From contig OZ025726.1 of NCBI GenBank assembly GCA_964019335.1, forward strand, positions 62,001-126,000: 64,000 nucleotides of DNA, written 5' to 3'. This DNA comes from Diplonema japonicum (taxonomy: Eukaryota; Protista; Euglenozoa: Diplonemea). The notes below the pieces were generated by a model. It searched no databases and was not told the DNA's origin. It was given only the letters and a program-made list of their open reading frames with translations. This document shows positions 19,033 to 52,156 of the stretch, one piece after another. Made by a program: the position numbers and the translations under genes. Every line of letters starts with the position of its first letter. The stretch's first letter is position 1.

Positions 19033-19629
19033 CTACTCCATGAAAGGAGGGAACTTGATGGGCTCCACGCTTATCTCGGGCTTGGGGTTTCCGAAGAAGT
19101 CCCAAGACTCCTTGCCACCGATGATGTGCGCGGCCCTCAGTTCCTGGCACAAGGCGCAGGCACCGCAGCTGTGATTTGTCGTTAGTTTAAAACACTCAAT
19201 CCACACACCAGTAGGAGATCAGACAGTCACCCACGAAACCGTCCTTGGGACCACCACCCTGGACACCAGCCTTCTTACGGATGGCGTACCTCATGGAGCA
19301 CCCAACACAGGCACCGCAGAAGGTAGCGGGCAAGCAGTGGTTCACAATAGCACAGGGCTGGTCAACAGACCATGCGAACATCTGTTTAGGTTTTTTTAGG
19401 TTTTTAGGTCTTTTTTTTTGTTTTTTATTTTGTTTTTCTTTTCTCGTACCTTGCACTGGTTGAAGCACCCACAGCACCACCAGGTGGCACAGCAGTACGG
19501 GTCGCAGCACGGGGCCACTACCCAGCACTCCCAGCACTTGCCACCGTTGCCACCCCAGTCGAGCTGGCCGTCCATGACACCGCCACCACCGTCACCACCA
19601 CCCTTACCGTCCATCTGGTTGTAAGTCAT
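19033..19629 (-). CDS. PLAC8-family Cys-rich protein, tandem copy A (3 exons)
   Basis: Introns 19382-19449 (68 nt, A-rich) and 19169-19208 (40 nt, with CTAAC). Spliced product CCDPYCCATWWCCGC..RYAIRKKAGVQGG..GDCLISYCCGACALCQELR has the PLAC8 motifs and aligns with the intronless paralog at 24200-24682. Confidence 0.85.
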
Positions 19630-20184
19630 TTTTTTTAAGTTTTTTTTTCTTCTTGTGTCTCTGCAATATGACGTTAAGCTAAGCAAGGAGAATATCAGGG
19701 GGCGGAAGGTCATGGAGGGGGGAAGCAATGGTTGATACATCAAAAAAAGAGTCTAAGGTGTCCAAGTGTATGCATCACATGCACGTGACAAGCCACAGTC
19801 ACGCTCGGGGCACCTGGGCTAGCAATGATGCACTGTCCGAGCTACAAGTCCCTCCCGGACTGAAGGAAGGACATAGACGCTTCCTCAGTCTGGGCAGCTG
19901 GCCACTTCCTCACACGCATCGAGTACAGTCCCATGACGCTGCTCACAAGGAAACACAGAACTAGGAGCATGGGGCGGGAGGGGGGAAAACAAAAACAAAA
20001 AAAAAAAGAGAAAATAAAAAAAAAAAGAGGGTTGGGACTACGAGCAGACGAGGAAGATCAAAAGGGACCATTCTCCTGTTGAAAGGAAGTTTGCATTTTA
20101 CCCACCTTTCACCCCCCCCCTTGCTTCGTCAAAAGAGGAAGACCTGAGAAGGGGGAAAAAAAGAAGGCAAAAATAATTTGTTTT

Positions 20185-20234
<50 letters not shown>

Positions 20235-20462
20235 CGCGTAAGTAATTTGTGTGTGGGGTGAGGGGCAAATAAAGGAGACAACGAGGGGAAGAAAAAACAA
20301 AAAAGCAAAATGTAAACGTTAGCACCAGTGGGGAAGAGCAGCTTGATGTAGTACGCCCAAAGGCAGCCATGGTAATAGCAGCTACAAGCCACCACCGTGC
20401 AGGAGAGAGGGTAAGGGCACCTGGGCCTGATAGGCGCAAGGGTGTACTGTGGTAATCACAGT

Positions 20463-21059
20463 CTACTCCATGAAAGGAGGGAACTTGATGGGCTCCACGC
20501 TTATCTCGGGCTTGGGGTTTCCGAAGAAGTCCCAAGACTCCTTGCCACCGATGATGTGCGCGGCCCTCAGTTCCTGGCACAAGGCGCAGGCACCGCAGCT
20601 GTGATTTGTCGTTAGTTTAAAACACTCAATCCACACACCAGTAGGAGATCAGACAGTCACCCACGAAACCGTCCTTGGGACCACCACCCTGGACACCAGC
20701 CTTCTTACGGATGGCGTACCTCATGGAGCACCCAACACAGGCACCGCAGAAGGTAGCGGGCAAGCAGTGGTTCACAATAGCACAGGGCTGGTCAACAGAC
20801 CATGCGAACATCTGTTTAGGTTTTTTTAGGTTTTTAGGTCTTTTTTTTTGTTTTTTATTTTGTTTTTCTTTTCTCGTACCTTGCACTGGTTGAAGCACCC
20901 ACAGCACCACCAGGTGGCACAGCAGTACGGGTCGCAGCACGGGGCCACTACCCAGCACTCCCAGCACTTGCCACCGTTGCCACCCCAGTCGAGCTGGCCG
21001 TCCATGACACCGCCACCACCGTCACCACCACCCTTACCGTCCATCTGGTTGTAAGACAT
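20463..21059 (-). CDS. PLAC8-family Cys-rich protein, tandem copy B (3 exons)
   Basis: Near-identical duplicate of 19033-19629 at offset +1430. Introns 20812-20879 and 20599-20638. Differs at codon 2 (T vs S). Confidence 0.85.
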
Positions 21060-21134
21060 TTTGATAAACAAGAGAGCCTGTGGTGTAATTGGCTGTGCGT
21101 CCAAGCAAAATAATATTTCGTTTGTCGACCAAGG

Positions 21135-22703
21135 CTACTGCAGACCGTGGTCCACAAGCAGCATTTTCTTGAAATCAAGATCGCGAACAAAAAACCTCTG
21201 ATTGATGGACTCAGGCAGAGGGTAGGGGCCGTCTCCTTCCGCAGACGGGACCGCATCCCATACAGCGCCGATGGGTGCCACAGGGAGGGACACAGGTTGT
21301 GTGGAGGGGAGGGATTTCTTCTTAAGGGGCGGCTTGAGGGCTGCAGCCCACTTAGTATCTGTAGGAAGGGCAGTCTGAGGGCCCAGCTCCCCCTTTGGTT
21401 TTGAGAACTTGTTAGTGCCCCACAACGCGATGAGGAGGGTCAAGCGCTGCACAGGAGTGTCGAGTGTGCTACAAGCTGTGTTTGCTTAATAGGTTTAAGT
21501 GCGCCTCATACCTGGAAGAACCCCGTGCAGCCTGTTGCCAGGGAAATACAGCACAGCACCGTCTTTGGGATGTGCAGCCCACCCACCTGTCTTACCCGCC
21601 ACTTTCTCGGTGTCCTCTACCTTCTGGTCCACCACAACAGTGACGCCACCTGTTTCCGCACCAGTAAGGTACACCACTACGCTCTTCAGGGGGTGGATGA
21701 TCTCCCCTGTGGCCTCAAGAGTCTTTTCCTCCATGTCGAAGTGCATCTGGTGCCCGATGTCCCTCCCCACAAGGCGTGTATGCGCCCACCACTCTGTGGC
21801 ACGCACTTGTTCCCTGATGCCCGAGTTCTTGATGGCCAACTGGATGAGCTGTTCAACGACGTTACAAGGCGGCACCGTGGGGCTGTAGAAGAAGCTGAAA
21901 TACCCACGCGCCGAGTACCCTGTCTCTGCCCAGTACGGCGATGAGGGGGAGAAGGCCTTGGTAAGCCGCGACAGAAGCGCAGGAGGGATCATATCTTGAT
22001 ACAAAGCAACAGGAGGAGAGGACGACGGGTGCCCGGTGGGGGGTTTAGAACGAGTGTGCGACCAGACAGCAGGGGACAGGGCATAACGGACTCCAAAAAG
22101 CTGGAGAATATCACTACGCTCGGTGCTCTTAACACCTAGCTGCGAGTACAAAAGAGCAAGGTGGTAGAGCGCAATGGGACGGCACGTGTTATACATGCCA
22201 AGGACCCATGTCTCCGCCCACGGCTGAGAGGTGATGGTAGCAGGCGGGGTACGTGTTGCATGCAAATAGCACACCATAGCTGCTTGGACATCGTTGGCAT
22301 CTCTGCACATCCCTGCGAGGCTGAGCCACCCGTTGTAGCAGGAGGAAAATGTCTTCGTTGCCCTTTCAAAATACTCCTTAGCTGATGCGGAAGACGAGCT
22401 GGTAAGCTTCTCCTGTCCAGCCTCCGCCAAGGCCTCGTCCATGTGTATTTCTCCCAGGCTGTTCAGCACACTGCTTATCAGAATCTCACGGGGTGGTACT
22501 GTGCCGCTTACTTCTCCATAGGTGCATCCTTCGGGGAGCATGTCCATGCATTCTATGAACTTTTCCTTTGCTTCTTCTACTTCACCTGCCTCTAAGGCAT
22601 CTTGGGCATCAAAGAAGATGTCAACAGCCTCCTCACCTTTACTTAATACCCTTCGTTTTCTTTTTACTACTCTTCTGACCACCCGACGGACCTTTTTGGC
22701 CAT
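21135..22703 (-). CDS. TPR-containing 2-oxoglutarate/Fe(II)-dependent oxygenase (2 exons)
   Basis: TPR-like helices at the N-terminus, then EWWAH..HQMHFD..VVVYL..GG.T..LYFPGNRLHGV. Intron 21476-21511 (36 nt) joins the exon carrying the 2OG-binding RLTLL motif (ORF 21135..21452). The start could also be the in-frame ATG at 22733. Confidence 0.8.
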
Positions 22704-24136: not shown

Positions 24137-24171
<35 letters not shown>

Positions 24172-24199
24172 AAGACTGCATCGTTGGCTAACCTCACGC

Positions 24200-24682
24200 T
24201 CAATTCATCAGAGGGGGCATCTTGAAGCCACCCTCCGAGGTAAGAGAGACAGACACCTTGTCGAAGAAGTCCCAAGATTCCTGCCCACCAATTGTGTGCG
24301 AAGCACGGAGAACCTGGCACCACGAGCAAGGGCCGCAGCACCAGGACATCAGGCAATCACCAAGGAATCCGTCCTTAGGGCCACCACCCACCATACCAGC
24401 CTTCTTCCTGACGGAGTACCTGGTGGAGCACGAAGTGCACGGGCCACAGAACATCATGGGCAGACAGTGGTTAACAATACCACAGTTTTGGTCCATGCTC
24501 CAGGAGTACAACTTGTTCCCGTTGCAGAACCCGCAGCAGCACCACGTGGCGCAGCAGTATCCACTGCAGCACGGGCTGCATCCGCAAATGTCGCTGCACT
24601 TTCCTCCCCTCTCACCCCAGTCGCACTGGTTGTGGAACACACCACCCTCCCCAGACGAGTCGGTAAGTTTCTCGTTAGACAT
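24200..24682 (-). CDS. PLAC8-family Cys-rich protein, intronless paralog C
   Basis: 160-aa ORF with CCSGYCCATWCCCGFC..RYSVRKKAG..GDCLMSWCCGPCSWCQ; clearly homologous to copies A and B. Confidence 0.85.
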   Translation of the reverse strand: MSNEKLTDSSGEGGVFHNQCDWGERGGKCSDICGCSPCCSGYCCATWCCCGFCNGNKLYSWSMDQNCGIVNHCLPMMFCGPCTSCSTRYSVRKKAGMVGGGPKDGFLGDCLMSWCCGPCSWCQVLRASHTIGGQESWDFFDKVSVSLTSEGGFKMPPLMN

Positions 24683-28210: not shown

Positions 28211-29914
28211 TCATGTTCTGACGTAAGGATCTTCGCAAAACTGCAAACCTTCAAAAAGATCGCTGTTGTTGCTGTTGTTGGTTGAACCGTTTGGCTGCAA
28301 GGGGTGTCCTCGCTTCGGGTCCTTCTTCTTTCGGAAGCCTCCCTTCGGGCGCGGGCCTTGCGGGGGTTTTGGCGGGGCTAAACTGAGGCCAGAAAATATT
28401 GACTCTGTGTCTTGCGGATAGCTGAGCTGCTCTGCGGCTGACACCAGTTCTTCATCGTCATCCTCTGCCGGAGCCCTCGAAGCTTCTAAGAACGACGAAG
28501 ACAGGTTTCCTCGCATTTTGTTTTTTAGACCATAAACGTGCACCGCACCCAAAAGTCTTGTCTCCGGGAGCTTTGCATAAACCCCCACAACTGCCAACCC
28601 TGCGATGAATGACAGCAGCCAGTATCTCAACCCGGACCCGTCGGCACCTGAGCATTTTACCAACTCTACCAACACCACTCCCATCCAATAACCTGCGGTC
28701 AGTGCGCCCATTCCGACCTCTCTGAACCTCACAGAGTGCACTTCAGTGTTGTACACCCATGGGATCCCCGCCATCCCGACACCATAGAAGACAAAGTACA
28801 CCATTAGGCAAACGATGGTCAAAAACTGGAAGTCGTTTCTGATTAGGAGCCCTACAAGTCCGAGACACACGCTGATGCCAGTCAAGGACACGATGAGGAG
28901 CAGCCGCCTGTTGAACAGGTGCACCGTAAAGATCAAAACCACTAACCCGAAGAGCACAACGCTGTCGATTGCCGCATGAGAGAGGCCCTCTCCCAAGATA
29001 GTGGTGTTGTTGCCGCTTGTGAACTGGTTTTGGATGAAGTGCGACGTGACGTGCTGGCTGCCGCTGCAGGCGGGGTCCAGCATGTGCGGACCCAGCAGCT
29101 GGTTTAAAATCTGAAGAACGACGCCCGACAACGCGGCTGTGCGGTGCTTCGTTAACAATTTCTTGTAATGCCCGCCGTGTCCCCTTGTATCCTGCAGAAC
29201 TTGGTGCATCTCGGTGACGACACGTTCGGACCCGTTGTAGAGCTTCTCAGCAACCTGCCTGGCTGCCGCGAGCTTTCCTTTCTTGACAAGTGCCAAGGGC
29301 GTCTCAGGAATGTTCAAAAGCATCAGAAACTGAACACACGCTGGGAAGACGATAAGCCCCAACATCCACCGCCAGCCGTCGCTGTCGTTGACATCAGTGA
29401 AGTTCAAGGAAATAAGGGACGCCACGATCCTGCCCAGACACACCATGGCGATGAAGATGATGACGAAGGTTCCTTTCCGTCCTTCAGGAGACACCTCGGA
29501 GAGGTACATCGGAGCCACAGTGCTGGAGAAACCCAATCCGAGCCCTGTGAACAGCTTGCCCAGTATCAGCGTCTCGAGGTTCCTGCTCCCCGTGCACATG
29601 ACCTCGCCGACAATGAACAGCGCAGTCGCTATCACAGCAACACCCTTCCTGCCGAGCTTGGTTAGCAAACCTGCTGTCAAGGAACCGATGCTGGCAGAAA
29701 CAAAGCAGACGTACGTGATGGCTTCCACCTGAGACGACGTAAGGTGGTTCCCTTGGAAAGCAATGTGGTCGCTGTGGTGCAGTACAATCCCGTTGTTCTT
29801 TGCTGTGTACATACATAGATGCGTCGAATATCCTGAAGACGTACCCCATGACAAAGCCATTGAAGGCCATGGTGAGTAGAACGAAAACAAGGTGTGCGGT
29901 CATAAGACCCTGGA

Positions 29915-29948
<34 letters not shown>

Positions 29949-30374
29949 TTTTGCTGCGAACCATACCTCGTTGGCTAAGGAGGCCGCAAGGCCGCGGAAG
30001 CTTGAAGTTGAGAGTTGTGAACGGAAGGAGTGGGTCAGTGCGACAGGGACGCAGGGGGACTTCTGTCCCTTGGAAGTCGAGAGCTCTCCGCCTTCTTCCT
30101 GTTCAGATGCCGCGTCCACCTGTATCTCTGTAACCAGCCCCGTCAGCACCTCGCGCGGGAAGTAGATCTCGTCGCATTCGTCTCGTAGTTGTACAGCCAC
30201 CGTCCCATCGCTGTCGGTGCGTATCACTACGCCCTCCTTGCCCACTGTTTCCTCGTACACGTCTTCATCCCACTCCAGCTCTCCGTTCACCTCGATGTGG
30301 TGTTTCAGCTTTTTCACATCCTCCTCCACCACCACCACCTCCCCGTCTGTAAGAGCGCTCATCTCGTTTCCCAT
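28211..30374 (-). CDS. MFS sugar/inositol porter with an N-terminal Mind-bomb SH3-repeat-like domain (3 exons)
   Basis: Introns 29910-29966 (57 nt, poly-A) and 29772-29814 (43 nt; best of three possible boundary choices). Sugar-porter signatures LGRK, PMYLSEVSP..RKG, WRWMLG, PETP, GIPWVYNTE, LPETR. Confidence 0.85.
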
Positions 30375-30432
30375 TATTATTACTTTTTTTTTTTTGTTGT
30401 GAGAGAACAAGATGCAAATTCAAGAATAAAAC

Positions 30433-31345
30433 TTAGTCCTCCAGAAGCGACATCCTTTCCTGCCCAATGGCCCTCCGCATGCTGCTCTCGGAGTCGAACT
30501 TTGCCGCCTCCGTAGTGCTGTAGCGTTCCGGTTCCCTGTTCACTGTGCTGACATCGGTGGCCTCCGTGCTCCGCCGGGAGTCCCCCCGCGAACCAGTGGT
30601 CTTGAAGGGTCGGCCTCTGGGACAATTCCCATTTCTATGTTTTTTTTTTTTTTTTTTTGTTTTACGTATCATACCTGCATGGCCAAGGCCCGTTGCACGC
30701 GGAGCAGGTGTTGGAGTTGGTGTCTCTGCCACCATCGCTTCGTCCTTTTGAACAGTCCATGTTCCGGCAAGGCCAGGGTCCCCTGCAAGCAGAGCAAGAG
30801 TCGCCCTTTCCTCCTTTGCCCCCCTTGCGCTTATCATCTTTCTTGAGAACATCAGTCCATGACTTCGATGTGTTAGTGTCGGTAGAGTCCCGAGCGATGT
30901 CGAGCTCCATCTTCGTCTCACGGTCGAAGTTCTTCGCGAAGCCCCACTTGTAGCTGGTTCTGCAACGTGAGTCTATCCCTGTCGCTGCGACCCCTGTGTA
31001 CAATGCAGAGGGGAGCTTTCCTGTGTTCCAAGCAAGGGCGAACTTGCAGAAAGCTTCTGTCGCGCTTTCGGTTGACTTGAAATCGTCCAACTTCTTCTTC
31101 TTCAGACCCAGCCACACCGAGAACTCCGATTGCTTCATAAAATAGTCATCTTTCGTTAAGATAACGCCGTTCGGCGCCGCGCCTTTTCTCTCCCTCTTCA
31201 TCTCGAACAGCTTCTCTACAAGTTTCTCATGTTTCGTCAGTTTTACTTTTTTTATCTTTTTCGACTTCTTACGCTTCCTGTCCGAGCTGTCTGTGCTCGA
31301 ACTGCTGGAACTGCTGCTGGTGCTTCTTGCTCTCTTTCTCCCCAT
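30433..31345 (-). CDS. SCI1 (style cell-cycle inhibitor 1)-like nuclear protein with two Cys4 motifs (2 exons)
   Basis: Ser/Lys-rich N-terminus, then LTKDDYFMKQSEFSVWL..FCKFALAWNTGKLPSALYTG..RTSYKWGF. Removing intron 30635-30674 (40 nt, poly-A) completes the second CSACxGPWPCRNxxC repeat. Confidence 0.7.
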
Positions 31346-31497
31346 TTTTTTTTTCCCAACCCCCTTTCTTTTTTTTTTTCTCTTCTGCTTGATTTTCACA
31401 CTAAAAAAAAAAAAAAAAATACATAAAGTAGACCGACACACACTTTTGTTCTTCCTCGTCTTTTTTTTTTTTTTTTTTTTAAATACATTTTCTTTTT

Positions 31498-31693
31498 TTA
31501 CTGTTGCTTCTTTCCCTTTTTTTTTTTGCTCTTGCCCTTTTCGCCGCCGCCCTTGTCACCGCCGCCGCTTTTGCCCATTTTACTCGCGGCCTCGAGGCGT
31601 TGTGATTTCACCCCTTCCCACATGGTCTCCACGTGAGTCTGGGTGAGATACTGGGAGTGGAAGAGATCGACATCGTATGCAAGATCGGAAGGG

Positions 31694-31728
<35 letters not shown>

Positions 31729-32353
31729 CCCATCCACCCTAACATACTAGAAAGCAGTTCGTCGTGACTGCCGGCTTGCATATCTTTGACCTCCTTCACG
31801 AAGAAGGTGTTGGTGAGGGTTTTGAGCGATTCGTTGTTGAGAAAGGCGTTGGTAGCAGGCCGTGCCACCAGCATGGGCTGCCTCACGCTTGGCAGTTCGC
31901 CGAACGGCACAGTCCAACTCTCCTTCACAAGCGACTGGAAGAGCTCAACATCCCCATCCAGCGGAGGCTTTGGAAGGTCGGTGGCGGAGAGGGTCTGCAG
32001 CTCTTCTTTAAGATCAGCAATTTCTTCATCCGTGATATTAACATCCCTTTCAGATTCGAGGAGCCGGTTTCGTATATGAGTCAACCGTTCTTCCCGTGGC
32101 GTTGCTATGGGGGTGTCGATGATAACCAAGCTGCCTACCCGCAGGGGGTGATGTCTGCCGAGATACACAGCAAGCAGCGCACCCACAGAATGGCCAACTA
32201 CGTGCACCCATGGGCTTCCTAGAACATTGATGTACTTTAAAACCAGGTCTGCTTGCCGTTCCAACCAGTCTGCATTTGCTTCTATTTGTGGGAGTTCTAT
32301 CGCTGCGCAGCCAGCTGGGTTGTCCATGTTTTTGCATAATCTGTTGGGATGGT

Positions 32354-32389
<36 letters not shown>

Positions 32390-32613
32390 CTCCATACTTT
32401 CCAAGTTTCTCCAGCCCCCCTTCCCCGCTCAGGATTAAGACAGGTTGGTGTGCTTCAGAGTTGCTCGTTCTTTTTTTTTTTTTTTTTTTTTGAAAAAAAA
32501 GGGAAATACCTCCACATTTTTGTATCTGCAAGCTCCGGGTAATTATAAGGTTTGTGCATGACATTCAACCATCCTGCGCTCGAAGGGCACAGGGCCGAGA
32601 GGGTACGACGCAT
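31498..32613 (-). CDS. Probably mitochondrial alpha/beta-hydrolase-fold protein (4 exons)
   Basis: MRRTLSAL presequence, GHSVG nucleophile elbow, GSLVIID and a late His (GSHDEL). Introns 32470-32509 (40 nt), 32341-32397 (57) and 31695-31747 (53), all poly-A-rich. Confidence 0.8.
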
Positions 32614-33227
32614 TTTTTTTTTTTTTTTTTTTTTTTTTCCCTTCCCCTTCTTACCCCTCTCTGTAGCAGGCCGTGTTAAAAATACAGAACGGAAAGTTTT
32701 TTTAAAATAAATAAACGAATGGAAAGGTTTGAAACACTTTTTTTTTTTTTTTTAAGAAGTGAATATCGTCGACAGAAATTGTCCGTTGGGACGATGATTC
32801 CCCCTTTGTGTTTGCTTTTTTTTTATTGCTATTATTATTTTACTGTAAAACGAGGGGGGGGGGGGGGGGGGGGGAATTACCGGAAGGAAAATCATCTAGG
32901 GCTTTCGGACATTTTTTCCTTCCGGTGATTTTCCCATAGATCCGATAGGCAAGCTACGTTACGTCCACTGGTGCGCTTGGCATGCGACTCAGCAAGCCTT
33001 TGCTGAGTCAGAGGAAACAAACGGAAAATGGAGACCGTAGGTGTGGTGCTGTGGCCCTTGTAGCCATCATCTCGATGACTCAATAAGGTCGTAGCAAAAG
33101 AGGAGAAACAAATCTTCTATGCACATCCCGATAGACGCTTTAAGGATCAAGGAAAATGAAAAAGAAAATGAAAGCATAATAACCTTAAAGGTTCTTGGGA
33201 GGTCTACAGCCCTTGAGGGAAGCAAGG

Positions 33228-33261
<34 letters not shown>

Positions 33262-33323
33262 AAAATCATCCGGTCGGTCGGAGGCTTCCGGTGATTTTCG
33301 TTTTACAGTTATTTTTATTTTTT

Positions 33324-33840
33324 TTTTATTTCACTCTTCGTCATTTTCTTCACTCACTAGGGGCCTCATTATTTAACGCGAAATGGCCATTATTTAACTA
33401 GTTAAATAATGGCCCTTCAGAGTGGAAAAATGAGTCTCGCCGTGGAAAAAAAATGCACCCAACCCCTTGAAAAATCTTTTTGAGGTGGGGGTATTTTGAC
33501 TATTCTTGGCCTCTGAGGCCATTCCAGCCCTTAAAAGTGGGAATAAGTGCCTTACTTCCCCTTTAAATGCCACGGCGAAATAGCTACCTGTATTACCTTA
33601 GGAAAATCCCCAAAAAGCTGACCTGCGTGAAAAAAAAAACAGCAGTGAAAGCAGCGAAGAGTGAGTGACTCAACTGACGAAAAGTGAAATAAAACGACTT
33701 ACTTGCCGCCAAATGAGCCATTATTTAACACTTGTTACCGTTTTTTTGCACGAGGGCCCTGCGGGCCCTCGTGCAAAAAATTCGGGAGCTCGAGTTAAAT
33801 AATGACTCATTATTTGTTGGCAATAAATAGCTATTTTTTT
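33324..33840. mobile_element. Non-autonomous interspersed element, copy 1 (Helentron/HINE- or MITE-like)
   Basis: Homologous to 47127-47604. 34-bp imperfect inverted repeats (33324-33357 / 33661-33694), a perfect 30-bp palindrome (33385-33414), an 18-bp-stem hairpin (33742-33780) and T-rich ends. Confidence 0.65.
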
Positions 33841-34339: not shown

Positions 34340-34373
<34 letters not shown>

Positions 34374-38417: not shown

Positions 38418-39818
38418 CTAAAGCACCGGGATGGCTGGTGACGTGAGGTCAATAGGGTCGCCTTTTTCTCCTGTAGGAGGCTGGCAATTATTAAGAACCA
38501 CTTTACACCCAAAGTTGCAGGACTGCTGGAAGGAAACTAATTGCTGTTTCGTGGGATCTCCGGTGTAGTGGAAGGTAATCTTCCGCCTATCGTACTGAAT
38601 TTCGCACTTATGCACTGTAAGGGGTGACTGCATCATCTGGGCGTTCTGGACTGCTATCTGAAGAGCCTTTTCTTCGTCTGATATAAGCGCCTTCCAGGTC
38701 TCGACCTCTGTGGACTGTGCCACACGCTGCACGCGGTATCGATCGTCCTTCCTGCCGCCAAGCCGTGCACCTGCCACCAGGCCAAGGTCCACGCCTTCCC
38801 TTGATTCGACTAGCACGTGTGCACCTAGAGGGACTCGCTCGTTGCTGGCGTACTCAGCCCGCCTTCCGTGTTTGAACAGGACGAACAATCGGACCAAGGC
38901 ATCGTTCTGTCGCCCGTTCCCCTTTGTAGGGACCTTGGGTCCTTTCTTCCCGCCCTTCCCTCCCTGAGGCGGTCCTGACGGTGGTGCGCTTGCTGGTGTT
39001 ATCATCGTTGTTTCTGTCCGTGTAGCGTCCTCCTTTGGGCAGTGCTTCACCTCTAGCTGGAACACCTTCCGCCCTGCTTCTCTGATCTCCGACACCACGC
39101 GTCGCAGGTCATCGCCTGTGTTCACCGGCTGGCCGTCGAGCGTTTGGATCACACCGCACACGACGCCTGCCCGTCCGCAGGGCGACCCAGCGAGCACGTT
39201 GCTGATCCGCACTGTGCCGTCCGCTAGCACTTCGAACGACAGCCCCAAGGACTCCCCCACGTGCCCGAGCTGGATGTCAAAGACCATAGGGCCGTCCGCT
39301 TTAATGTTATGCGCCACACCTGCAGTCTCTGCCAACCACGCTAGACGTGCTTCCAGACCTTTCCGTCGTGCCTGTGGTGTGGTGTGGTGTGGTGTGGTGT
39401 GACGTGTTGATGCATACCATAGGGAGGGTGCACCCCCCTATCCCGTCGTTAAGTTTGCCCTCAAACCTATCGTAGTCGAGAGACTTCAAGTGCCCCATGA
39501 CCTGTGGCGGGTGCTGGGTTTAGGGTTGACATACATTTTGGTTCACAGACAGTTCAATCACACCACCCATGTCGGAGAAGCGAACAAAGTCGCCGTCAGT
39601 GTCAGTGAACTCCACAAAGCCGCCCTGCAGGTGGTGTGGTGGCTGGTGGTATGCATACCTTTGTTGCCGGTTTGGAGCTGGACCCTCGCGTTCGCTGCTC
39701 AGCTGCTTTGTGAATAGGAGCAGCAAGCTGCTGCTGCTGCTGAGGAGGAGGCTGTTGCTGTTGCTGTAGTTGTTGCAGCTGCTGCGGGTATTGCTGATAC
39801 GCTTGCTGTTGCATCTGA

Positions 39819-39849
<31 letters not shown>

Positions 39850-41803
39850 GGTGCATGTGTTGGTGTTCATGATGGTGGTAATGGTGGTGCTGGTGCTGGT
39901 GTTGCATTTGCTGCTGTTGCATCACCCACTGGGCCTGCGCAGTCATCTGCGACTGAGGAGGAGGCGTGGGCGCAGCGGCAGCGATGGTAGTAAACTCAGA
40001 CGTCCTGCGGCAAAAAATCATTTCCACACACAAAAAAAAAAAAAAACATACGTGTTACTCTTTGCATCGCTGTTGGGGTCAATATAGTGCCCGGTGGAGT
40101 CGGAGAGAAGCATGGGAGGCGCATCGGAAGTGGGCAAGGAGCTTCCGATGGACGTGTGCTTAAGCTGTATTTATGCTGAGATACGAAGGACATACCATCA
40201 CAGTAGGAGAGGGCGGTGGCTGGTTCACACTATTGGAGGGTGTGTACTGGCCGTGAGGCTGATGCGACAAAGAAGACCGTCTAGATAGCGATCCCTCTGA
40301 ATCATAGGTCTGCATAAGTGGCGGGATGCCAGAGGTGGACTCCGAAGAGGACGCCAGCGGCGGGGAGGAAATGTCATAAGCATCCGGAAGAGCCTCCATC
40401 CCGTTCTGTATAAAGGTAGCGAATGGTATAGAAGACGAAGAGTACTGCTGGTACGCGTGCACCGAGCTAGAGCTTCCTGGCGACCTGGGCTGTTGAGATG
40501 ATGTTGTCGAATACGCATAGGAAGAGAATGAAGAGGATGTCGAGCCTACGACTTCGATCTCACCATCACTCTCGCATTTATAAGGGTCGTGACGGTAGGA
40601 TGATCCTCTTGACTTGCTGCTGCTGGATTCGACTTCTTTTTCGATCTCCTTATGCGCCACCATAGGTTTCGCCAGCTGCGGGGTTGTTAGCGGTTCATAC
40701 ATGAACGTAAGACACTTGACTGCCCCCGGAACGGGGTCCACCCCGAGCACATCGTTCTTGACCATGAGACAGATACCACCATTGCTCACCATACTCTGCA
40801 CCACGTCCAGTACATCGGCGTACGATTCTGATGTTCCGTAATGCGCGGAAACGATGTACGCCACGGAGCCCTCGGGTAGGGACAGCATCTCGTTATCCGT
40901 GATGATGAGCGTTGCCGTTCTTGGAGCGATTATGTACTTTGCATCCGTTCGCTTTTTGTTCGGAACAGGGAGCCCCGACGTGTCGGTGCGGGCGTACGCA
41001 GCAAGAAGCCCAATGTGGCGCAGCGTTTCCTTCAAAGCAACACCGTTCTCTTCTGTTACAGCACATGACACACCGGTATCGCTTGCCTCAAGGACACCGT
41101 TGGTGTACATAAGGCGGCTTACAGACGGGAGAATCAGATTGTTGTCCTCCCACCATTCCAGCTGAACGGTATCGGTGAGGACGAGTTTGATGGTCTTCCC
41201 CTCTGAGATGAAAGAGGCAGGTTTGAGCTTCTTGATGTTCCGCTTGATGGCTTGTGCTGCAGACAGTCCACCTTGTGTTTTGGACGATTGGTTCAGATGT
41301 TTTATTTTGGTGTGTGTGTCAATATAGCCAACAGGGGGGGCGAAGTTTGCAAAGCTTAGAAGCCGTTCGGCGTCTTTGTGCAGGTGGCCGACTTCGAGTA
41401 CCCCGCCACTGCATCTCAATAGTTCTTTGAGGACTTTTACAAATTCCAGTGGTTCCCTTGGTATGTCCAGGACCAGATCAAGTTCTGTTGGTATATGAAG
41501 CAGCAAGTGGGTCTCATATTCTTTCACCAAGCCCATTTTCTTGCTCACCTCGATTTCTTGTGTTGTGACCTTTGCGATGGCCTTGTACGCAATGACTCTG
41601 ATCACACTCCCGTTCGGATCGCATACAAATAGCTTGTCAGGTGTTGCCACTACAGCCCGTTTCACATATTTCTGACTCTTCGTCAGTTCAGTTACTACCT
41701 TGCAGTAGTAGACGTCCTGCGCGGTGCACCATTTCAAGGTGGGGGGAGGGGACACACATTTAATGCTCAGCCCTTGGGGCGCTTGCGGAGCGGGCCCAGA
41801 CAT
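38418..41803 (-). CDS. Multidomain protein: PH/myosin-TH1-like, DUF3395-like, polyQ/H, PDZ-like and PSP1 C-terminal domains (6 exons)
   Basis: Introns 40159-40195 (an alternative in-frame acceptor lies 6 nt away), 40005-40051, 39625-39658, 39502-39534 and 39372-39417 join ORFs 40160..41803, 39602..40033, 39520..39870, 39307..39498 and 38418..39335 in one frame. PSP1 motifs FKHGRR..VLVESREGVDLG..EIQYDRRKITFHY; PDZ motifs SLGLSF..ISNVLAGSPCGRAG. Confidence 0.8.
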
Positions 41804-42297: not shown

Positions 42298-42746
42298 TCA
42301 CCGCCTTTTCACCAATCTTACGGCACCAACAACAGATGAAGTGAGCACTGTGGTCAGCAGCAACAACTTTCCTACCCTGCAGCACAGCCGAGAGTTTTCT
42401 GTGTCGTGTATTTTTTTTTTTTTTCATTTCCCCCCCTCTAAACCAAACCTCTACCAATGTGCTCCTCAGGGTAACGGCACAGCATGCTTAGACTAAGAGG
42501 CAAATCATCTATATCATTAATCTATTAGAACAATTTATGTTTTTTTTTTTTTTTTTTTAAATCCCGCGTGTACCTGTTTAAGCGAAGCAGAAGGAGGCGT
42601 GCAGGAGATCAACGCAGGTGGCCAGCAAAGACCCGCTTTCTGAGCAAACTCATGTGGCTGCACCGTGTATTCCTGGTCTTGGAGATTGTGCAGGTCATCA
42701 CCAATAAGGTCCATCTTGGTCATCACCAAAAGCATCTGTTCAGGTA

Positions 42747-42785: not shown

Positions 42786-44338
42786 ATACAGGGATCTTAA
42801 GCTTCACCAGAGTCGGGTACTTTTCAGCGATGTAGCTGAAGCTGTAAACATCGTCCCCGTCGTAACAAAGGAGGATGGCGTCAATGTGCGACATGAAGGA
42901 AGGGGAGTTGAGGAGCGTGGGCACGCTGCGGTCGGGTATCTCGTGAAGCTGATTTTTTTTTTTTTTTTTTTTTGGATTTGATAAAACATACCACAAGGTC
43001 GAAGATCTCATTGTCGTCGCCGCTCTTCTGTGGGACAAGCGTGATGGAGTGGCTTTCCGTCGCAACGTGCTGATCCGCGCTTGTCGCGTAGAGCTCGTGG
43101 TTGACCAGTCTCTTCCTCACCGCCGTTTTCCCGCACTTCGGCGATCCCAATATCAAACACTGCAGTATGTTGGGCAGCTCCGTCTCCTTTTTCCTGAACT
43201 CCCTCTTCTTCTTTTTTACGAACAGCATGTTGGGATCCTCGTCCTTCTGAAGCCCCCACACCCTTGCAAACACAATGAGATGCTGGTACTTCCTAACTGT
43301 GATGAACTTCCACGACGAGATGAACGAGTCGATGGTGTACTCGGCAGGGTTTTCTCTGCTCCCGGGCAAACCTGGTACGTCTGCCCAAGGGGGCTCGCCA
43401 GCGGACGTCCATTGCGTGGCGGGAGTGAACTGCCACATCTTACTAGGACAGGAAAATTTTTCAGTGTAGACTTCCTTCAGGAACTCCACACCGTTGTATG
43501 ACAGCTGCAACATGTCTGTTTTTTGATCCGCAAGCTTCACAGAATCAAAATCTGCTGTGCACCATGCGAGACCAGACTTGTGAATACCGCTGGCAGAAAG
43601 TGCGTTCCACAACCCGCGTGTGCGTTTCCAGTAGTCGGGGTGGTCTGTGTCAGTGAGCCAGTCTTCTACCAAGGCTAGGATAGCGTAACTCGTGAGGTTG
43701 TTGTTGGAGGTGAAGTTATCGATGGAGAGGTCGGCTTGCTGTTCTTTTATAAACGCTTTTGTTGTTTCGACCTCTCGTGATATGTCGCAGACCCCGTCCA
43801 TGACCGCGCTGAGGAAGGAGTGCAGTTCTGCGTCGTTCAGGGTGTCGTCGACATCCCTGTCGTGATACCAGAACAAGCGATGGATGGCCCTCCACCCCAC
43901 TGCAGTGAACGTTGATTCTGGTCGGTTCCACAAAACATGTGAAGGAGCTTCGCTCACATGGTACAAAGACCATAGAAGTGCGTCGAGATGTTCGTCTAGA
44001 GAGAAGCCTCCGAGGTAGAATCGGCTCTCGCTGAACTCCTCGTCTGCCTCGTCCAGATCTATCTGCCCCACAATGGCGAAGGGGGGTTGTTTCTTCATCT
44101 CTGAAAGTTGTTGCTTCAGTTCTTCTAGTTCGTCTTCCTTCCCCGTTAAACAGTACAGCACCGCCTCCACGCCCTTCTGCCCTTTGCACAACAGTATTTC
44201 GCTCGGTCCCGCTTCCTCGACCACATTGATCTCCCCCCGCACCCCGTTTTTCTCGTTCACCACATTTGTGAGCCCCTCGCTCAGCTCGTCTAGCACCTCC
44301 TTCACGGCATCCTTGTCACCTACGATGCCCACGCGCAT
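42298..44338 (-). CDS. MIRO: Mitochondrial Rho GTPase (Miro/Gem1)-like protein (5 exons)
   Basis: EF-hand DRDVDDTLNDAEL, second GTPase domain GSPKCGKT..DAILLCYD..SFSY..TKMDL, and a C-terminal tail anchor (LLLLTTVLTSSVVGAVRLVKRR*). Introns 42949-42991, 42736-42789, 42522-42573 and 42399-42454. Confidence 0.8.
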
Positions 44339-44506: not shown

Positions 44507-44565
44507 TTAGTACGCGCGCTGTTTTGTCACACTCGCAACAACCTGTACGTGTATTTTATTCCCCC

Positions 44566-44614
<49 letters not shown>

Positions 44615-44746
44615 TGTTTAGCTTCCACGACAGGTACGCCACGGTTTGCAAGAGGCGTAGCAGTGAAGGAAGTGCCTTGGAAGGTTGTACAGGCGAGGAG
44701 GTTGTTTCGGGCGCCCATCACCTGTGGGGAATGGGGTTAAAGGTCA

Positions 44747-44787
<41 letters not shown>

Positions 44788-46271
44788 ATACATCATTGTT
44801 TACCGAGATCCCATCGAGGTACTGCTTCAGAAGGGCACGGAGCTTGGTGTTCTCGTTCATCAGGTGGTACTTCTCCCTTGCGATGGCAGCGTTGTCGAGA
44901 AGGACCTTGTTGAACTTCTTCCAGAAGTTCTCTAAGTACTGCCACTCCTCCACCAACCCGTCCTGTCTCAACAGCACCGACATTTCCTTTGCTGCTGCCT
45001 CTAGCTGTGGGTCGCTAGGGGGTTTTGGATTTCCTGCTTGTTCGGCCTCGAACTGTTGCTGTTTCTCCGCCTGAAGCATCGTCTCGAACTCCACTTCTTC
45101 TACACTCACGCCATTCGCGAAGTTCAGGACTCGTTCTCTTTCTGTCTCCAGTGCCCTGCACAGCTCAGACAGGCGCAGCACTCTCTTCGCCCTCTCGCTG
45201 TTGCCCTCGAGGGAGGCTTTTGTCTCTCTTGCCTGTGCAACTAGCCTGTTCAGTTTGTCCTCTTGTTGTTTTCGCCACCTCTGCATTCTGTGTTTTAGTT
45301 CTTTGAAATGTTTCGCCGTCATCTCCTTCTCCTCCTTCATCGCCTTGTTCCGCTCCTCGCACTCCTTGATGTTGTTCGCCAGGTTCGCCTTCCAGTTCGC
45401 GATCATTTCCTGCAGCTTCAGGATACGCCGCATCTGGCGTGAGATCTGGAGGACAATTTTTTTTTTTTTTTTTTTTTTTAATTTTATATTTCAAACACAC
45501 CTTGTCAGCTGTTTCAGCATCCTTGTTCGTCAGGTCGATGTAGGTTTTCATCTTCTCCTCTGCAGACTGCATGTACTTGTCGTGTTCATGGTTGATCTGG
45601 TGCTGGTACTCTAGAATCTCTCCTTCAAGCATTTGTTTCAGAACGTTGTATTCCTCTTGGTTTTTGTCCCGCGTCTCGTCCTTTTTCTGGCTGAAGTCTG
45701 TCTGGATGTCCGTGTCTTGCTCTTCAGCGTCCTTCTTCATGGCGTTCATGATGGCGTGCAGGGCCTCGATCTCTTTGTGATGCTTGGCACGGATCTCAGC
45801 TTTTTCAAGCTCAAACTCGTGCTTCAGCTCCTTCAGGTCTGACTCGTACTCTGTGTCAAGGTCTGACATGCGCTGGTTTTGCAGCTCTATAAGGGAGTCT
45901 ATGCTTTGTAGGTGGGTTCGGAGTGCTAGGCGGTACTGCTCCTCTGCCTCCGTGAGGTCGCCCATCAGCATGTCGATGACTGCGTTCTTCCTATCGAGAG
46001 TTTTGTCGTAGGTCTGTCGTAGGACTTCTACGTCTGCAGAAAGTTCGACGTACTTTTCCCTCCTGAGCAGCTCCACCCACCGCATTTGTACCTCCCGTAG
46101 ATTCTCCTGGCTGTACTTTGCCTCTTCCTCCATGAGTTCCTGCATCCGTGTCTTGATCAGGACCTCCCGTCTTTTCTTCTCCTCCTGTTCCTTCAGCCTG
46201 TCCATTTCCATCTGGTCCTTGTCGCGTGTCACCTTCGCGCCCCCCTTCATCAACTTTCCGTAGAGCGGCAT
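44507..46271 (-). CDS. DRC2: Dynein regulatory complex subunit 2 (CCDC65) (4 exons)
   Basis: LDRKNAVIDML..DLTEAEEQYRLALRTHLQSIDSLI and LENFWKKFNKVLLD..ENTKLRALLKQYLDGISV motifs. Introns 45446-45500, 44722-44791 and 44543-44613. Confidence 0.85.
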
Positions 46272-46347: not shown

Positions 46348-46394
<47 letters not shown>

Positions 46395-46565: not shown

Positions 46566-46604
<39 letters not shown>

Positions 46605-47126
46605 GCACAAGAGGAGGTGTCGTCACGCACCTGAGACCCAGGTCTGGAATAGACCTTTGGTCTTGCTGCCCCACAAGTCAACGTCACTGATGATAGAAGG
46701 AACAAAAAAAGCTGGCTACTGACCGCTAAAATAAAAGATCCACCAATCCAATGGGGGGGGAAAAAAGGGGGGCAGGGGCACACGTATCTGTGCTTAAGTG
46801 TTATGTCGCATTACGACAGTAAGTAGAAGCAACGCCTAAGGGGAAGAACACACACCACATCTACGAATGGACAACGATGGCAAATAGATATTTGCGCATA
46901 GTGCTGCCCAGTGGAAGTGGAGCGGGGTAGGGAGGGGTCACATGCAGTTTCGCCGTGCTGAGTACTGGCGAAACTGGCAAGGCCACCTAAACCATGTGCT
47001 ACGCCCCTCTTTGACCAAAAATCGAAATCCGCCGGTTTCGAGCACCCGTTTGGTCATAAAAGGGGTATGGAGGTGGATTCTTTTTTTTACCTACAATGTT
47101 TTTCCTTTTTTTTTTTTTTTTTTTTT

Positions 47127-47604
47127 TTAATTTTACTCTTCGTCATTTTTTTTCTTCACCGGGGTATCGTAATTTAACGTGAAACGTCCATCCTCGAAAA
47201 AAAAAAAATGTACTCAACCCTTTGAAAAATATTTTTTGGGGGTGGGGTATTTTGACTATTTTCAGCCATCTGAGGCTATTCCGGCCTTAAAAGTGGGAAT
47301 AAGTGCGTTACTTCCCCTTTAAAACGCCACGGCGAAATACCTTCCCCATGTTACTTTAGGAAACCCCCTAAAAAAGCTGACCTGCGTGAAAAAAAACAGC
47401 AGTGAAAGCAGAGGAGTTGAGTGACTCAAATGACGAAGAGTGAAATAAAACGACTCTTACTTGCCGCCAAATTAGCCATTATTCACCTTTTTTCTTTTCT
47501 TTTTTTTTTTTCTTCTTTTTTTGCACTCGGGCCCTGCGGGCAAATCCGGGAACTCGAGTTAAGTAATGACTCATTATTTGTTGGCAATAAATAGCTATTT
47601 TTTT
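47127..47604. mobile_element. Non-autonomous interspersed element, copy 2 (decayed)
   Basis: Same orientation as 33324-33840 and colinear with it (shared GGGGTATTTTGACTATT, TTAAAAGTGGGAATAAGTGC, AAAAAGCTGACCTGCGTGAAAA, TAATGACTCATTATTTGTTGGCAATAAATAGCTATTTT). The palindrome and one hairpin arm are deleted. Confidence 0.65.
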
Positions 47605-47646
47605 TCTTCTTTTTTTTTCTTAAGTAAACGAAAAGGACCAGAGCCC

Positions 47647-49240: not shown

Positions 49241-49273
<33 letters not shown>

Positions 49274-49420
49274 ATCAAAAGTACAGAGGAAAAAAAAAAA
49301 AAAAATTCCTCTGACTGGGAAAAACCACCCCCCCCCCCCCAACGTGCCAAAAAAAAAAAGAATTTCATGGCTATTATATGAAGGGGGGGAATTTTTTTTT
49401 AATTTTTTAAAAACATTTTC

Positions 49421-50143
49421 TCACCAACTGTAGAAAAAACCATACGCACCCAAATCATCATGACCATTAACATCATTTGGTGCAACCTGGTTAGCAAGGT
49501 AAACATCACGCTTCGGGGATCTCTGCAAACTGTACAAAAAGCACTGCTTATTGGTCGAAGGTTGGACCCATCGGACACCATTTAAAGCAGGATTGATAAA
49601 GTTGGCGATTGCTAGGGCCTCATCGTCGGTGGCCAGCTTCAAGTACATCGCACAAATATTGGGAACACGCATAACCCCACTAAAATTCTTGGCCTTGCTG
49701 GCAGCGGCTGTATACCTAGTGACTGTCACCCGACATGCTGCGTTGAAGTAGTGAACAAGACTCAGCTGGTCCTCTGCTATCAGAGGCTCCTCAATACCAA
49801 CTATCTGAACCATCACCACAGAGGTGGGTTTCGTTTCTTTCGGTTTGTTCAGAATGATTTCTTTTGGCGTGACGCTGAGCTTGTACCTGTCCCACAAGAA
49901 CTTTTTGATGTCGGCCTTCGGTATCTCTATGCTTGCAACGTTCAGGTCTCTCGGGCTCAAGATCAGCACCTTGTTTTTGCAGTATCCGTCCTTAGACACG
50001 ATGTGGATCTCGTGTGTTACAATACTGTCGGAGAGGTCGTTCAGATTAACCTCATGTGGTACGTCCTGAACCATAATGCCCTTCTTTCCGGCACGCTTTG
50101 CACAGAAGTTCAAATCTCTGTGGTGTGTGAGCAAGGCGGCCAT
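49421..50143 (-). CDS. Hypothetical protein, divergent RRM-like family, paralog 2
   Basis: 240-aa ORF, paralog of 47647..48357. Confidence 0.75.
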   Translation of the reverse strand: MAALLTHHRDLNFCAKRAGKKGIMVQDVPHEVNLNDLSDSIVTHEIHIVSKDGYCKNKVLILSPRDLNVASIEIPKADIKKFLWDRYKLSVTPKEIILNKPKETKPTSVVMVQIVGIEEPLIAEDQLSLVHYFNAACRVTVTRYTAAASKAKNFSGVMRVPNICAMYLKLATDDEALAIANFINPALNGVRWVQPSTNKQCFLYSLQRSPKRDVYLANQVAPNDVNGHDDLGAYGFFYSW

Positions 50144-50908
50144 TTGGTGAGTATGAACCTTTTTTTTTTTTTTTTTTAAAAAAAAGAAAAGAATAAATCG
50201 TGTGCACAGTGTTCTGTCTCATATGACCTGAAATTAAAAAAAAAATAAACTAAAAAAGTGGATTAAAAAAAAAAAAACTTCTTGTGTTCTTTTCTTTTTT
50301 TTTTTGCTAAGTACTTTTTGAACACCATACCACTCCCCTCTCTTCAAAGAGCAATATATATATTTTTTTTTTTGAGCGAACTTTTTATTCGCTGGGAGCA
50401 TGGCGCAAGTGCGCCAGAAAACCTGATTTAAGACTAACCAGGTCACCGTGTGCATCAGGTTTAAAAAAAAAAAATTACGCCCACCTGTTGCAATCACCTC
50501 TACGTTTGTGGTTTTCTCTTTTTTTTTTTTTTAAATACATATTTATCCCCCTTGGGAGAGGAATAAAAAAAAAAGAGAAAAAAAAAAAAGAAGGAAGAAA
50601 GGACCCTCTAGGTTGGCAAATCGTGTTTGACAAAGGTTCCTAACGCAGGGGGTTGTTTCCTTCTCTTTTTTTTTCCCCCCTCTCCACAACTCTTTTTTTT
50701 TTTTTAAACACACGTCCGCACCCCCCAGAGAAAAATTAAAGGGGGGGGAGAAGCGGAGTGCTCAGCATACATTTTTTTTTTCCCCTTCTTTTTTCTTTTC
50801 TTTCTTTCTGTTCAGTACCATGTTTTCTTTAGAAAAAAAAACAAACAAAAAAAAAAAAAAAAAACACTTCATCTTTTTTTTTTTAAATAAAAAACTTGAA
50901 TTCTTTTT

Positions 50909-52156
50909 TCAGAAAACCTGTGCTTGCCTCATGAGCTCCACACCCCTTCGAACAATAGAGCTCTTCCACTCGGGTTTCCTTACGTAAAACGCATCACGCG
51001 TGTACTCAGCCCAGTACGGCTGGAACTCAGGGTCGAAGTGGTACGCCATGTTTTCCAAGATCAGCGCGCGTGCGACGAATAGTCCGTGTACAGTGCCGAA
51101 CTCTTGGGTGATGAAGTGCTTCTCTGATGCAGATGTGAAAATTTTTCTCAAGGCATGTGAAGTGAACCCCTCTGTGAGTTCATAACCCCCGGCAGCCTGG
51201 CTGTTTTTTTCAGACCCATCCAGCGCTTCCACCTTTGTCAGCGGGTCTGTCACAGGGCTGACAGGAAACCTTTCCCTAACCTTCTTCGCGATCTCTCCAT
51301 CGTCCACCAGCAAGGTGTCGACACCCTCAGGACCAAGCCCAGTGTGCACATCGATCTGCGTGACTTTGCCTGTTGCCTTATGAAGGTTCTTGCCCTCCAA
51401 ATAGCTCCTGAGTATCTTGTAAGATGCCTGAAGCTCAGTCCCGCCGAAAAAAATCCCAGTCTGAGTTTTTTTTTTTTTTTTTTCCCCTTCCCATACCGGT
51501 TTTTGATACTGAGCGGCAACAAGCGAAAGTTTGAGCCCTTCCAAACCATGATTGTACAAGGCCTTAGCCGCGATGGCCAGGATGCGGAATGGGTCCGCAA
51601 GGGACGGGGCATGAGGGGGGTTGAAGAGGTGGTCGAAGTCACCGTAGCCCACTACGTTGAAATCGCGTGCTTTAAGACGCTCGAAATCTGCAAGGTCGTA
51701 AAGCCCGTTCCTGTTTAGGTCCACGTTGTTCTCATTCCACCTGCGGAAGTGCGCCATGCCGTAGGGATTGAAGGCGTGGATCAGAACAGTAGTTTTCTTG
51801 GGTGGGCTTGCCGCCCATTGTTCTAAGAGCTTCACCTGAACACCTGAGCCAGCATACCCTTCGACGCCATGTACACCGCTGAAGTGCAGAACAAGCTCAC
51901 CCCCTTGTTCCGGTGAGACCTCGCCCTTGATCAACCCTATGTCTATCGTGTATGCGCTACCTTCTGCGATGGGGATTGTCGTCAGATCCATCCCCTGTAC
52001 CTTCTCCACCCCCCTCCTGAACTTATCCCTTGCCTCCCAATATGACTCTGAGAACGCCCTGCTCGGGTCGTACTGCTCCACCCTTCGCATTTCGTTCTGC
52101 GCCATCAATGCGGCGATCACCGCTGCTGCTAGTACCACCCAGGTTAAAAACCCCAT
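50909..52156 (-). CDS. DUF2817 / M14 zinc-carboxypeptidase-like protein (2 exons)
   Basis: Signal/anchor sequence, SGVHGVEGYAGS, NPYG..RRWNENNVDLNRN, IDVHTGLG, TQEFGT. In-frame poly-A intron 51461-51496 (36 nt). Confidence 0.85.
   Translation of the reverse strand: MGFLTWVVLAAAVIAALMAQNEMRRVEQYDPSRAFSESYWEARDKFRRGVEKVQGMDLTTIPIAEGSAYTIDIGLIKGEVSPEQGGELVLHFSGVHGVEGYAGSGVQVKLLEQWAASPPKKTTVLIHAFNPYGMAHFRRWNENNVDLNRNGLYDLADFERLKARDFNVVGYGDFDHLFNPPHAPSLADPFRILAIAAKALYNHGLEGLKLSLVAAQYQKPVWEGEKKKKKTQTGIFFGGTELQASYKILRSYLEGKNLHKATGKVTQIDVHTGLGPEGVDTLLVDDGEIAKKVRERFPVSPVTDPLTKVEALDGSEKNSQAAGGYELTEGFTSHALRKIFTSASEKHFITQEFGTVHGLFVARALILENMAYHFDPEFQPYWAEYTRDAFYVRKPEWKSSIVRRGVELMRQAQVF

What the first reader, a model, noticed from the sequence alone, without database searches (positions are those of the whole stretch)
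19382..51496. Spliceosomal introns with poly(A) in place of the polypyrimidine tract
Seen: about 13 introns have sense-strand A-runs (mostly ~15-40 nt) leading to the 3' AG: 19382, 20812, 29910, 30635, 31695, 32341, 32470, 42399, 42522, 42949, 44543, 45446 and 51461. In two of them (31695, 32470) the acceptor is simply A(n)G. Many others are CA-rich. Boundaries are supported by restored protein motifs in Miro, DRC2 and the SCI1 Cys repeat. Established: U2AF65 normally reads a U-rich tract, and in Euglenozoa that tract also specifies SL trans-splicing. Inference: a tract-independent 3' splice-site code, driven by a strong GTATG donor and short intron length, that could keep cis acceptors from being trans-spliced. 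This is my best candidate for an undescribed system in the window.
Basis: partly seen in the sequence, partly recalled or inferred. Interest (0 to 1): 0.78.

Follow-up and report, generated by a model that had tools for sequence, protein, structure and literature searches.

The report
A-rich introns of Diplonema japonicum
The short introns of this marine protist are spliced normally although their ends carry A- or CA-rich sequence instead of the usual U-rich signal, an oddity already published for this species; the A-runs are likely filler, and the lack of U may keep these sites from being mistaken for trans-splicing signals.

Summary
The introns are real. The window is Diplonema japonicum: my spliced gene models are identical to three EukProt proteins of that species. 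RNA contigs skip or are consistent with skipping 6 introns, including one A(n)AG acceptor directly. Of 30 unique introns, 11 have an A-run of 10 or more, 4 have a U-run of 15-41 and are still spliced, and 15 have neither. Runs are also dense in intergenic DNA. What all classes except the U-run ones share is a U- and G-poor, A/C-rich last 22 nt (U 0.17 in run-free introns, 0.30 background, 0.33 at predicted SL acceptors). Predicted SL acceptors carry a U-tract 26-60 nt upstream. Best reading: tract-independent definition of short U2-type introns, with slippage-grown A-runs. Avoidance of SL mis-splicing is plausible but untested, and I did not find it in print for diplonemids.

The parts
12596..12638 (-). 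predicted intron, CA-rich, no run (in frame, weak support)
12702..12742 (-). predicted intron, CA-rich, no run (weak support)
13016..13049 (-). intron, no run (frame support only)
13176..13213 (-). intron, CA-rich, no run (frame support only)
   Evidence: intronless paralogue
19382..19449 (-).
   Evidence: intronless paralogue
20599..20638 (-). duplicate of intron 19169-19208
21476..21511 (-). intron, no run (frame support only)
   Evidence: RNA contig gap 57+43 nt
29910..29966 (-). intron with A30, run ends 6 nt before AG
   Evidence: RNA contig gap 57+43 nt
30635..30674 (-). intron with A19, TAG acceptor
   Evidence: 40-nt gap in RNA contigs of X7, X8, X1; unspliced in DNA run X3
31695..31747 (-). 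intron with A33 running into the AG (AAG acceptor)
   Evidence: 53-nt gap in an X1 contig; X7 and X8 pieces stop at the donor
32341..32397 (-). intron with A29 then a CA-rich end
   Evidence: pieces of X7, X8, X1 stop at 32340, DNA goes on
32470..32509 (-). intron with U8 then A21 running into the AG (AAG acceptor)
   Evidence: frame and contig-length arithmetic; indirect
39372..39417 (-). intron, CACAC repeats, no run
   Evidence: D. ambulator homologue P0107
39502..39534 (-). intron, CA-rich, no run
39625..39658 (-). intron, CA-rich, no run
40165..40195 (-). shortest intron (31 nt), no run
42399..42448 (-). intron with G7 and A14, GTTTG donor
   Evidence: homologue alignment
42522..42573 (-). 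intron with A19 ending 16 nt before AG
42949..42991 (-). intron with A21 ending 2 nt before AG
44543..44613 (-). DRC2 intron with A42 at the 5' end, GTTAA donor
   Evidence: model identical to P0039
44722..44791 (-).
   Evidence: model identical to P0039
45446..45500 (-). DRC2 intron with A23
   Evidence: model identical to P0039 and P0007
51461..51496 (-). intron with A18 (frame support only)
   Evidence: model identical to P0045
57654..57696 (-). AU-rich intron, no long run (frame support only)
58180..58222 (-). intron, CA-rich, no run
   Evidence: frame and paralogue
60707..61246 (-). 540-nt intron with the same CA-rich end as 58180
31385..31420 (-). example of a predicted SL acceptor: U17 tract ending 16 nt before CAG
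   Evidence: X7 and X8 contigs both extrapolate to a start at 31384, a weak hint only

Best explanation
These are short GT-AG introns of Diplonema japonicum that are spliced out without a polypyrimidine tract, likely because the spliceosome pairs a GTATG donor with a nearby AG across a 31-76 nt unstructured intron, and their A-runs are likely slippage-grown filler rather than a signal. Shown: the last 22 nt before the acceptor are poor in U and G and rich in A or C, whether or not a run is present, except in the 4 U-run introns, where the run sits next to the donor. Inferred: G is avoided because it would create a rival AG. U is probably avoided because a U-tract upstream of an AG is the signal for SL addition and coupled polyadenylation in the same polycistronic RNA. 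Of the two letters left, A expands into runs as it does throughout this genome's non-coding DNA. A close donor would normally win even when a U-run is present.
For: Splicing. Classes 11 A-run, 4 U-run, 15 neither, of 30. Positions -4 to -25: all cis A 0.52, U 0.18, G 0.07; run-free (n=14) A 0.39, C 0.36, U 0.17; 263 background YAG sites U 0.30; 23 predicted SL acceptors U 0.33. The pattern holds in the 23 introns with RNA, protein or paralogue support. Predicted SL sites have U 0.47 at -26 to -60 against 0.33 background (p 0.0006), chosen by a rule with no tract term. A+U runs of 10 or more: 10.9 per kb in short introns, 7.2-13.0 per kb in intergenic classes. U-runs start at +4 to +9 and end 14-30 nt before the AG. 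Median intron MFE -0.7 kcal/mol. A U-tract gain separates two copies of an intergenic repeat. One orthologous intron read through in P0050 shows no long poly-Phe or poly-Lys. By analogy: U-rich tracts drive SL addition in T. brucei and purine insertions harm it (PMC9639853); U-richer, longer introns are the ones trans-spliced in Schistosoma (PMC5832876).
Against: Runs of 15 or more are about three times denser in short introns (10.2 per kb) than in intergenic DNA (2.6-5.8 per kb), more than neutral filler simply predicts. With the run removed, cores are 18-36 nt against 31-46 nt for run-free introns, so some runs probably supply needed length. SL sites are predicted, not mapped, and at -4 to -25 they do not differ from background in U (p 0.29). 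The four U-run introns resemble predicted SL acceptors in layout yet splice in cis, so U-avoidance is at most a bias. U2AF1/2 are present in this species (PMC12621601). One window, n=30; background sites overlap, so p-values are optimistic.
Confidence: 0.55

Rival explanations
1. The A/C-rich end is simply the acceptor preference of the diplonemid spliceosome (a divergent U2AF2, SF1 or another factor reading CA-rich RNA), and has nothing to do with avoiding SL addition.
For: CA- or CAC-rich motifs and weak A bias are reported in R. humris and L. lanifica introns (PMC12621601). Several predicted SL acceptors also end in CA-rich sequence. U-run introns are cis-spliced.
Against: A at -4 to -25 is 0.39 in run-free cis acceptors against 0.25 at predicted SL acceptors (p 0.005). 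No fixed CA motif or spacing is visible in 30 introns.
Confidence: 0.25
2. One reading: the poly(A) run is a positive 3' splice-site element, bound by an A-binding protein or offering a reservoir of branch adenosines in a lineage without a branch consensus.
For: Long runs are enriched in introns and A-biased. YTRAY occurs in only 4 of 30 introns. T. brucei has no branch consensus and uses nearby A residues (PMC9639853, PMC6597758). Two acceptors are A(n)AG with nothing else.
Against: 19 of 30 introns have no such run near the acceptor; the run ends 0-24 nt from the AG and is 14-42 long; the same A bias lies before start codons (9:0).
Confidence: 0.15
3. The runs or introns are assembly or annotation artefacts.
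For: Long homopolymers break the short-read contigs, so most run lengths are unchecked.
Against: Spliced RNA contigs in three runs from two studies, identical transcript-derived proteins, and 10,131 read-supported introns with the same bias in the literature (PMC12621601).
Confidence: 0.02

Closest known systems
[quoted passage not shown] 2025, RNA, PMC12621601; parts 1-4 of 8 of the text read, supplements not held)
   Same: Same species, GT-AG ends, (G)/GTATG donor, CAG acceptor, median 41 nt (43 here), A most abundant in the tract zone, rare YTRAY (13.9% there, 4 of 30 here).
   Different: The paper gives a pooled logo and two remarks. 'Spliced leader' has 0 occurrences in its text. In what I read it does not separate A-run, U-run and run-free introns, or compare cis with SL acceptors.
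CA-rich intron ends of R. humris, L. lanifica and S. specki (same paper)
   Same: The run-free introns here are CA-rich.
   Different: Those species show a C-preferring tract with weak or no A bias.
Cis versus SL competition at intron acceptors in Schistosoma mansoni (PMC5832876; section 8 and passages read)
   Same: U content, tract length and intron length bias an acceptor towards trans-splicing.
   Different: Schistosome introns keep a tract; here the cis acceptors have mostly lost it. No SL data were obtained here.
Trypanosome SL acceptor: U-rich tract, no branch consensus, coupled polyadenylation (PMC9639853, PMC6597758; passages read)
   Same: A U/pyrimidine-rich zone lies upstream of predicted SL acceptors here.
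   Different: Here the tract peaks 26-60 nt before the predicted AG; trypanosomes have almost no cis introns.
Nonconventional introns of euglenids and hemistasiids (PMC12621601)
   Same: Same phylum; short in A. motanka.
   Different: These introns are all GT-AG and nearly unstructured.

Membership tests
U2-type spliceosomal intron | GT...AG ends | tested here: met
   30 of 30, but GT-AG was a condition of my search; RNA gaps fit these ends
U2-type spliceosomal intron | removed from mRNA | tested here: met
   6 by RNA contigs (2 direct, 4 by arithmetic), 4 by identical transcript proteins, 9 by homologues, 4 by paralogues, 7 by frame or inspection only
U2-type spliceosomal intron | consensus 5' splice site | tested here: met
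   GTATG 19 of 30, GTGTG 4 of 30; pairing with the species' U1 not tested
U2-type spliceosomal intron | branch-point consensus | tested here: inconclusive
   YTRAY 5-50 nt from the end in 4 of 30
U2-type spliceosomal intron | polypyrimidine tract before the AG (usual, not universal) | tested here: not met
   U 0.18, C 0.24 at -4 to -25
U2-type spliceosomal intron | spliceosome-dependent excision through a lariat | not testable with these tools
   snRNAs, U2AF1/2 and Dbr1 were searched in PMC12621601, which reports U2AF1/2 in D. japonicum
Euglenozoan nonconventional intron | non-GT-AG ends | tested here: not met
Euglenozoan nonconventional intron | stable pairing of the two ends | tested here: not met
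   29 short introns: median MFE -0.7 kcal/mol, mean z -0.36; 4 had z below -2, all U-containing
Introner or mobile intron family | introns similar to each other in sequence | tested here: not met
   self-BLAST with low-complexity masking links introns only inside duplicated genes; three positions are shared with genome-derived ORFs of other records
U12-type intron | RTATCC donor (consensus recalled) | tested here: not met
   0 of 30
D. japonicum A-rich intron class (PMC12621601) | species, GTATG donor, about 41 nt, A dominant in the last 20 nt | tested here: met
Cis/trans discriminating acceptor code (proposed) | SL addition at U-rich but not at A/C-rich cis acceptors | not testable with these tools
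   only assembled contigs were available; no SL junction seen in the rows shown

The most novel reading that the evidence does not exclude
Diplonemids split the 3' splice-site signal in two: a U-tract about 25-60 nt upstream of an AG marks a site for SL trans-splicing and upstream polyadenylation, while cis acceptors are selected to be U-free and are recognised from the donor side without the tract. This would be how an intron-rich genome survives polycistronic transcription, and U-run introns would be leaky points of internal SL addition.
Probability: 0.3. Interest if true: 0.6.

Novelty: already known. Interest (0 to 1): 0.3.

Why it matters
The A-rich acceptor is a real oddity but is published for this species, with no mechanism. 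What could still matter is the contrast with SL acceptors. How one spliceosome tells cis from trans acceptors in a polycistronic RNA is open, and D. japonicum has about 10,000 short introns in three natural classes (A-run, U-run, CA-rich), so public RNA-seq could test it directly. In practice, gene finders that expect a pyrimidine tract will misannotate this genome.

Tried and rejected
No whole genome is held for this window, so all counts are from 64 kb. Read evidence covers only 29,000-36,900 and is from contigs, not raw reads; no run was on record as RNA, and I call X1, X7 and X8 RNA because their contigs skip introns that X3 keeps. The joint and loose-end tables were cut and dominated by a repeat, so no SL junction could be read. 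A metagenome scan with the DRC2 alignment found no relative among 596 pattern matches, so orthologous intron DNA could not be compared. My unguided gene-model script made wrong calls in several genes; I corrected them by RNA, homologue or paralogue evidence and by eye, which can miss introns in UTRs or in-frame introns. Two start codons were wrong and were fixed; only one search counts are used. The 'best 15-nt U window' test was set aside because cis windows are shorter; equal windows were used. Rule-chosen SL sites are wrong in some genes (for example the one for 30374 falls in the upstream coding sequence); none was dropped. End-pairing structure was rejected. Rfam: 0 hits. U2AF2 of this species could not be retrieved. 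Literature searches for a cis-versus-SL comparison in diplonemids, or A-rich tracts elsewhere, listed none beyond PMC12621601; its supplements and the supplementary text on introns of PMC10161547 (no hit in 7 held files) could not be seen and may bear on novelty. Earlier scan notes: none relevant.
Full report
Source. All 24 genes I modelled lie on the minus strand, as expected for a polycistronic euglenozoan cluster. The first DRC2 exon matches a EukProt protein at 100% whose accession names Diplonema japonicum. My spliced DRC2 model is identical to P0039, an exon-skipping version to P0007, and the sideroflexin model to P0045, also D. japonicum.

Are the introns real? Yes. In one search, contigs of runs X7, X8 and X1 skip sequence that run X3 keeps. 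All three stop at 32340, the acceptor of intron 32341. The remaining 199 letters of the X7 and X8 contigs reach the A-run before the start codon only if both 32341 and 32470 are removed; this is indirect. The four introns of the 'Miro' gene restore alignment to three transcript-derived homologues, and the five introns of the gene at 38418-41803 restore alignment to a D. ambulator protein.

What the full set looks like. I catalogued 32 introns, 30 unique: median 43 nt, donor GTATG in 19 and GTGTG in 4, acceptor CAG 26, TAG 2, AAG 2. Eleven short introns have an A-run of 14-42 nt. Four have a U-run of 15-41 nt. Fifteen have neither near the acceptor, and most of these are CA-rich. Only 6 of 11 A-runs end within 6 nt of the AG.

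More than chance? Homopolymers fill all non-coding DNA here: A+U runs of 10 or more occur at 10.9 per kb in short introns and 7.2-13.0 per kb in intergenic classes, with 1 in 42 kb of coding DNA. The orientation differs: A:U is 11:4 in short introns, 67:91 in intergenic DNA (p 0.03), 9:0 in the 30 nt before start codons and 5:15 at 31-130 nt before them. Runs of 15 or more are about three times denser in introns than outside (10.2 against 2.6-5.8 per kb), which filler alone does not fully explain. Intergenic DNA is presumably transcribed on the same strand and leans to U, so a simple strand-specific mutation bias is unlikely (inference).

The shared feature. At -4 to -25, cis acceptors have A 0.52, C 0.24, G 0.07, U 0.18. 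The 14 run-free ones have A 0.39, C 0.36, G 0.07, U 0.17. Background YAG sites (263) have U 0.30 and G 0.23, and 23 predicted SL acceptors, taken as the nearest YAG before each start codon, have A 0.25 and U 0.33. The result holds for the 23 best-supported introns. Predicted SL sites are U-rich at -26 to -60 (0.47 against 0.33, p 0.0006) but not at -4 to -25 (p 0.29). In the four U-run introns the run begins at +4 to +9 and ends 14-30 nt before the AG. Introns are nearly unstructured.

Mechanism. Shown: splicing without a tract, U/G depletion, three classes. Inferred: a short intron is defined from a good donor to the first suitable AG. G is avoided because in A-rich sequence it makes a rival AG. 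U is probably avoided because a U-tract before an AG is the SL and polyadenylation signal, as in T. brucei, where U-rich tracts work best and purine insertions harm trans-splicing (PMC9639853, passages; PMC6597758, passages). A then expands by slippage and can supply spacer length (cores of 18-36 nt once the run is removed). The U-run introns show that a nearby donor can override a U-tract, so any avoidance is a bias, not a rule. In Schistosoma, U-richer and longer introns are those that receive SL (PMC5832876, section 8), a precedent for the logic in another lineage.

Age of the introns. Genome-derived ORFs from unnamed records run off at the same codons as introns 42949 (P0003, P0004), 42736 (P0005) and 52835 (P0049-P0051), so these positions are older than the species. 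P0050 reads through about 70 codons of the orthologous sideroflexin intron with no more than three Phe in a row and a His/Thr/Pro/Gln-rich end, where this window has U41. That is one case, seen only as protein, but it fits unconserved runs over a CA-rich end.

What is known. Thakur et al. [quoted passage not shown] The core observation is therefore published. The paper never uses the term 'spliced leader'. My nine searches listed no cis-versus-SL comparison for diplonemids, but its supplements were not readable. [quoted passage not shown] PMC13598402 (passages) is the D. japonicum genome note with no mention of introns. PMC11613528, PMC11229312 and bioRxiv 10.64898/2026.10.18.760011 (passages) added nothing decisive.

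Verdict. Observation partly confirmed, interpretation partly supported, novelty already known. Interest 0.3, resting on the untested cis-versus-SL contrast (probability 0.3, interest 0.6 if true).

Noticed in passing
window 44543-44791: A D. japonicum DRC2 isoform (P0007) skips the 108-nt exon between the U39 intron and the A42 intron with a weak GTTAA donor; it equals my exon-skip model exactly. One Trinity isoform only.
   Followed up: partly
window 30375-30432: Only 58 nt separate two genes, and RNA contigs of X7 and X8 run across the gap. The nearest AG before the downstream start codon is A12-G at 30383, after a U-rich stretch; if it is the SL site, an A-run before the AG does not block trans-splicing.
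   Followed up: no
window 33290-33850 and 47100-47610: Two copies, about 80% alike, of an interspersed repeat. Summed contig depth in the DNA run is 60,000-116,000 against 40-90 in genes, so it is a very high-copy family; no Rfam hit.
   Followed up: partly
window 60707-61246 and 58180-58222: Paralogous introns of two tandem ammonium-transporter genes with 96-99.9% identical exons: 540 nt against 43 nt, sharing the CA-rich last 15 nt; the long one looks like an insertion into the short one.
   Followed up: partly
window 19017-21062 and 24200-24682: Two 99.8% identical Cys-rich genes with two introns each, and a diverged intronless paralogue with a PLAC8 hit below cut-off.
   Followed up: partly
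30 nt before the start codons of 23 genes: A is about 0.5 in the last 20 nt and A-runs outnumber U-runs 9:0; it may reflect 5' UTR selection (translation, or avoidance of a second SL signal).
   Followed up: partly
run X1 on window 29329-32340: A relative about 96-97% identical in coding DNA splices at the same two positions seen (30635, 31695).
   Followed up: no
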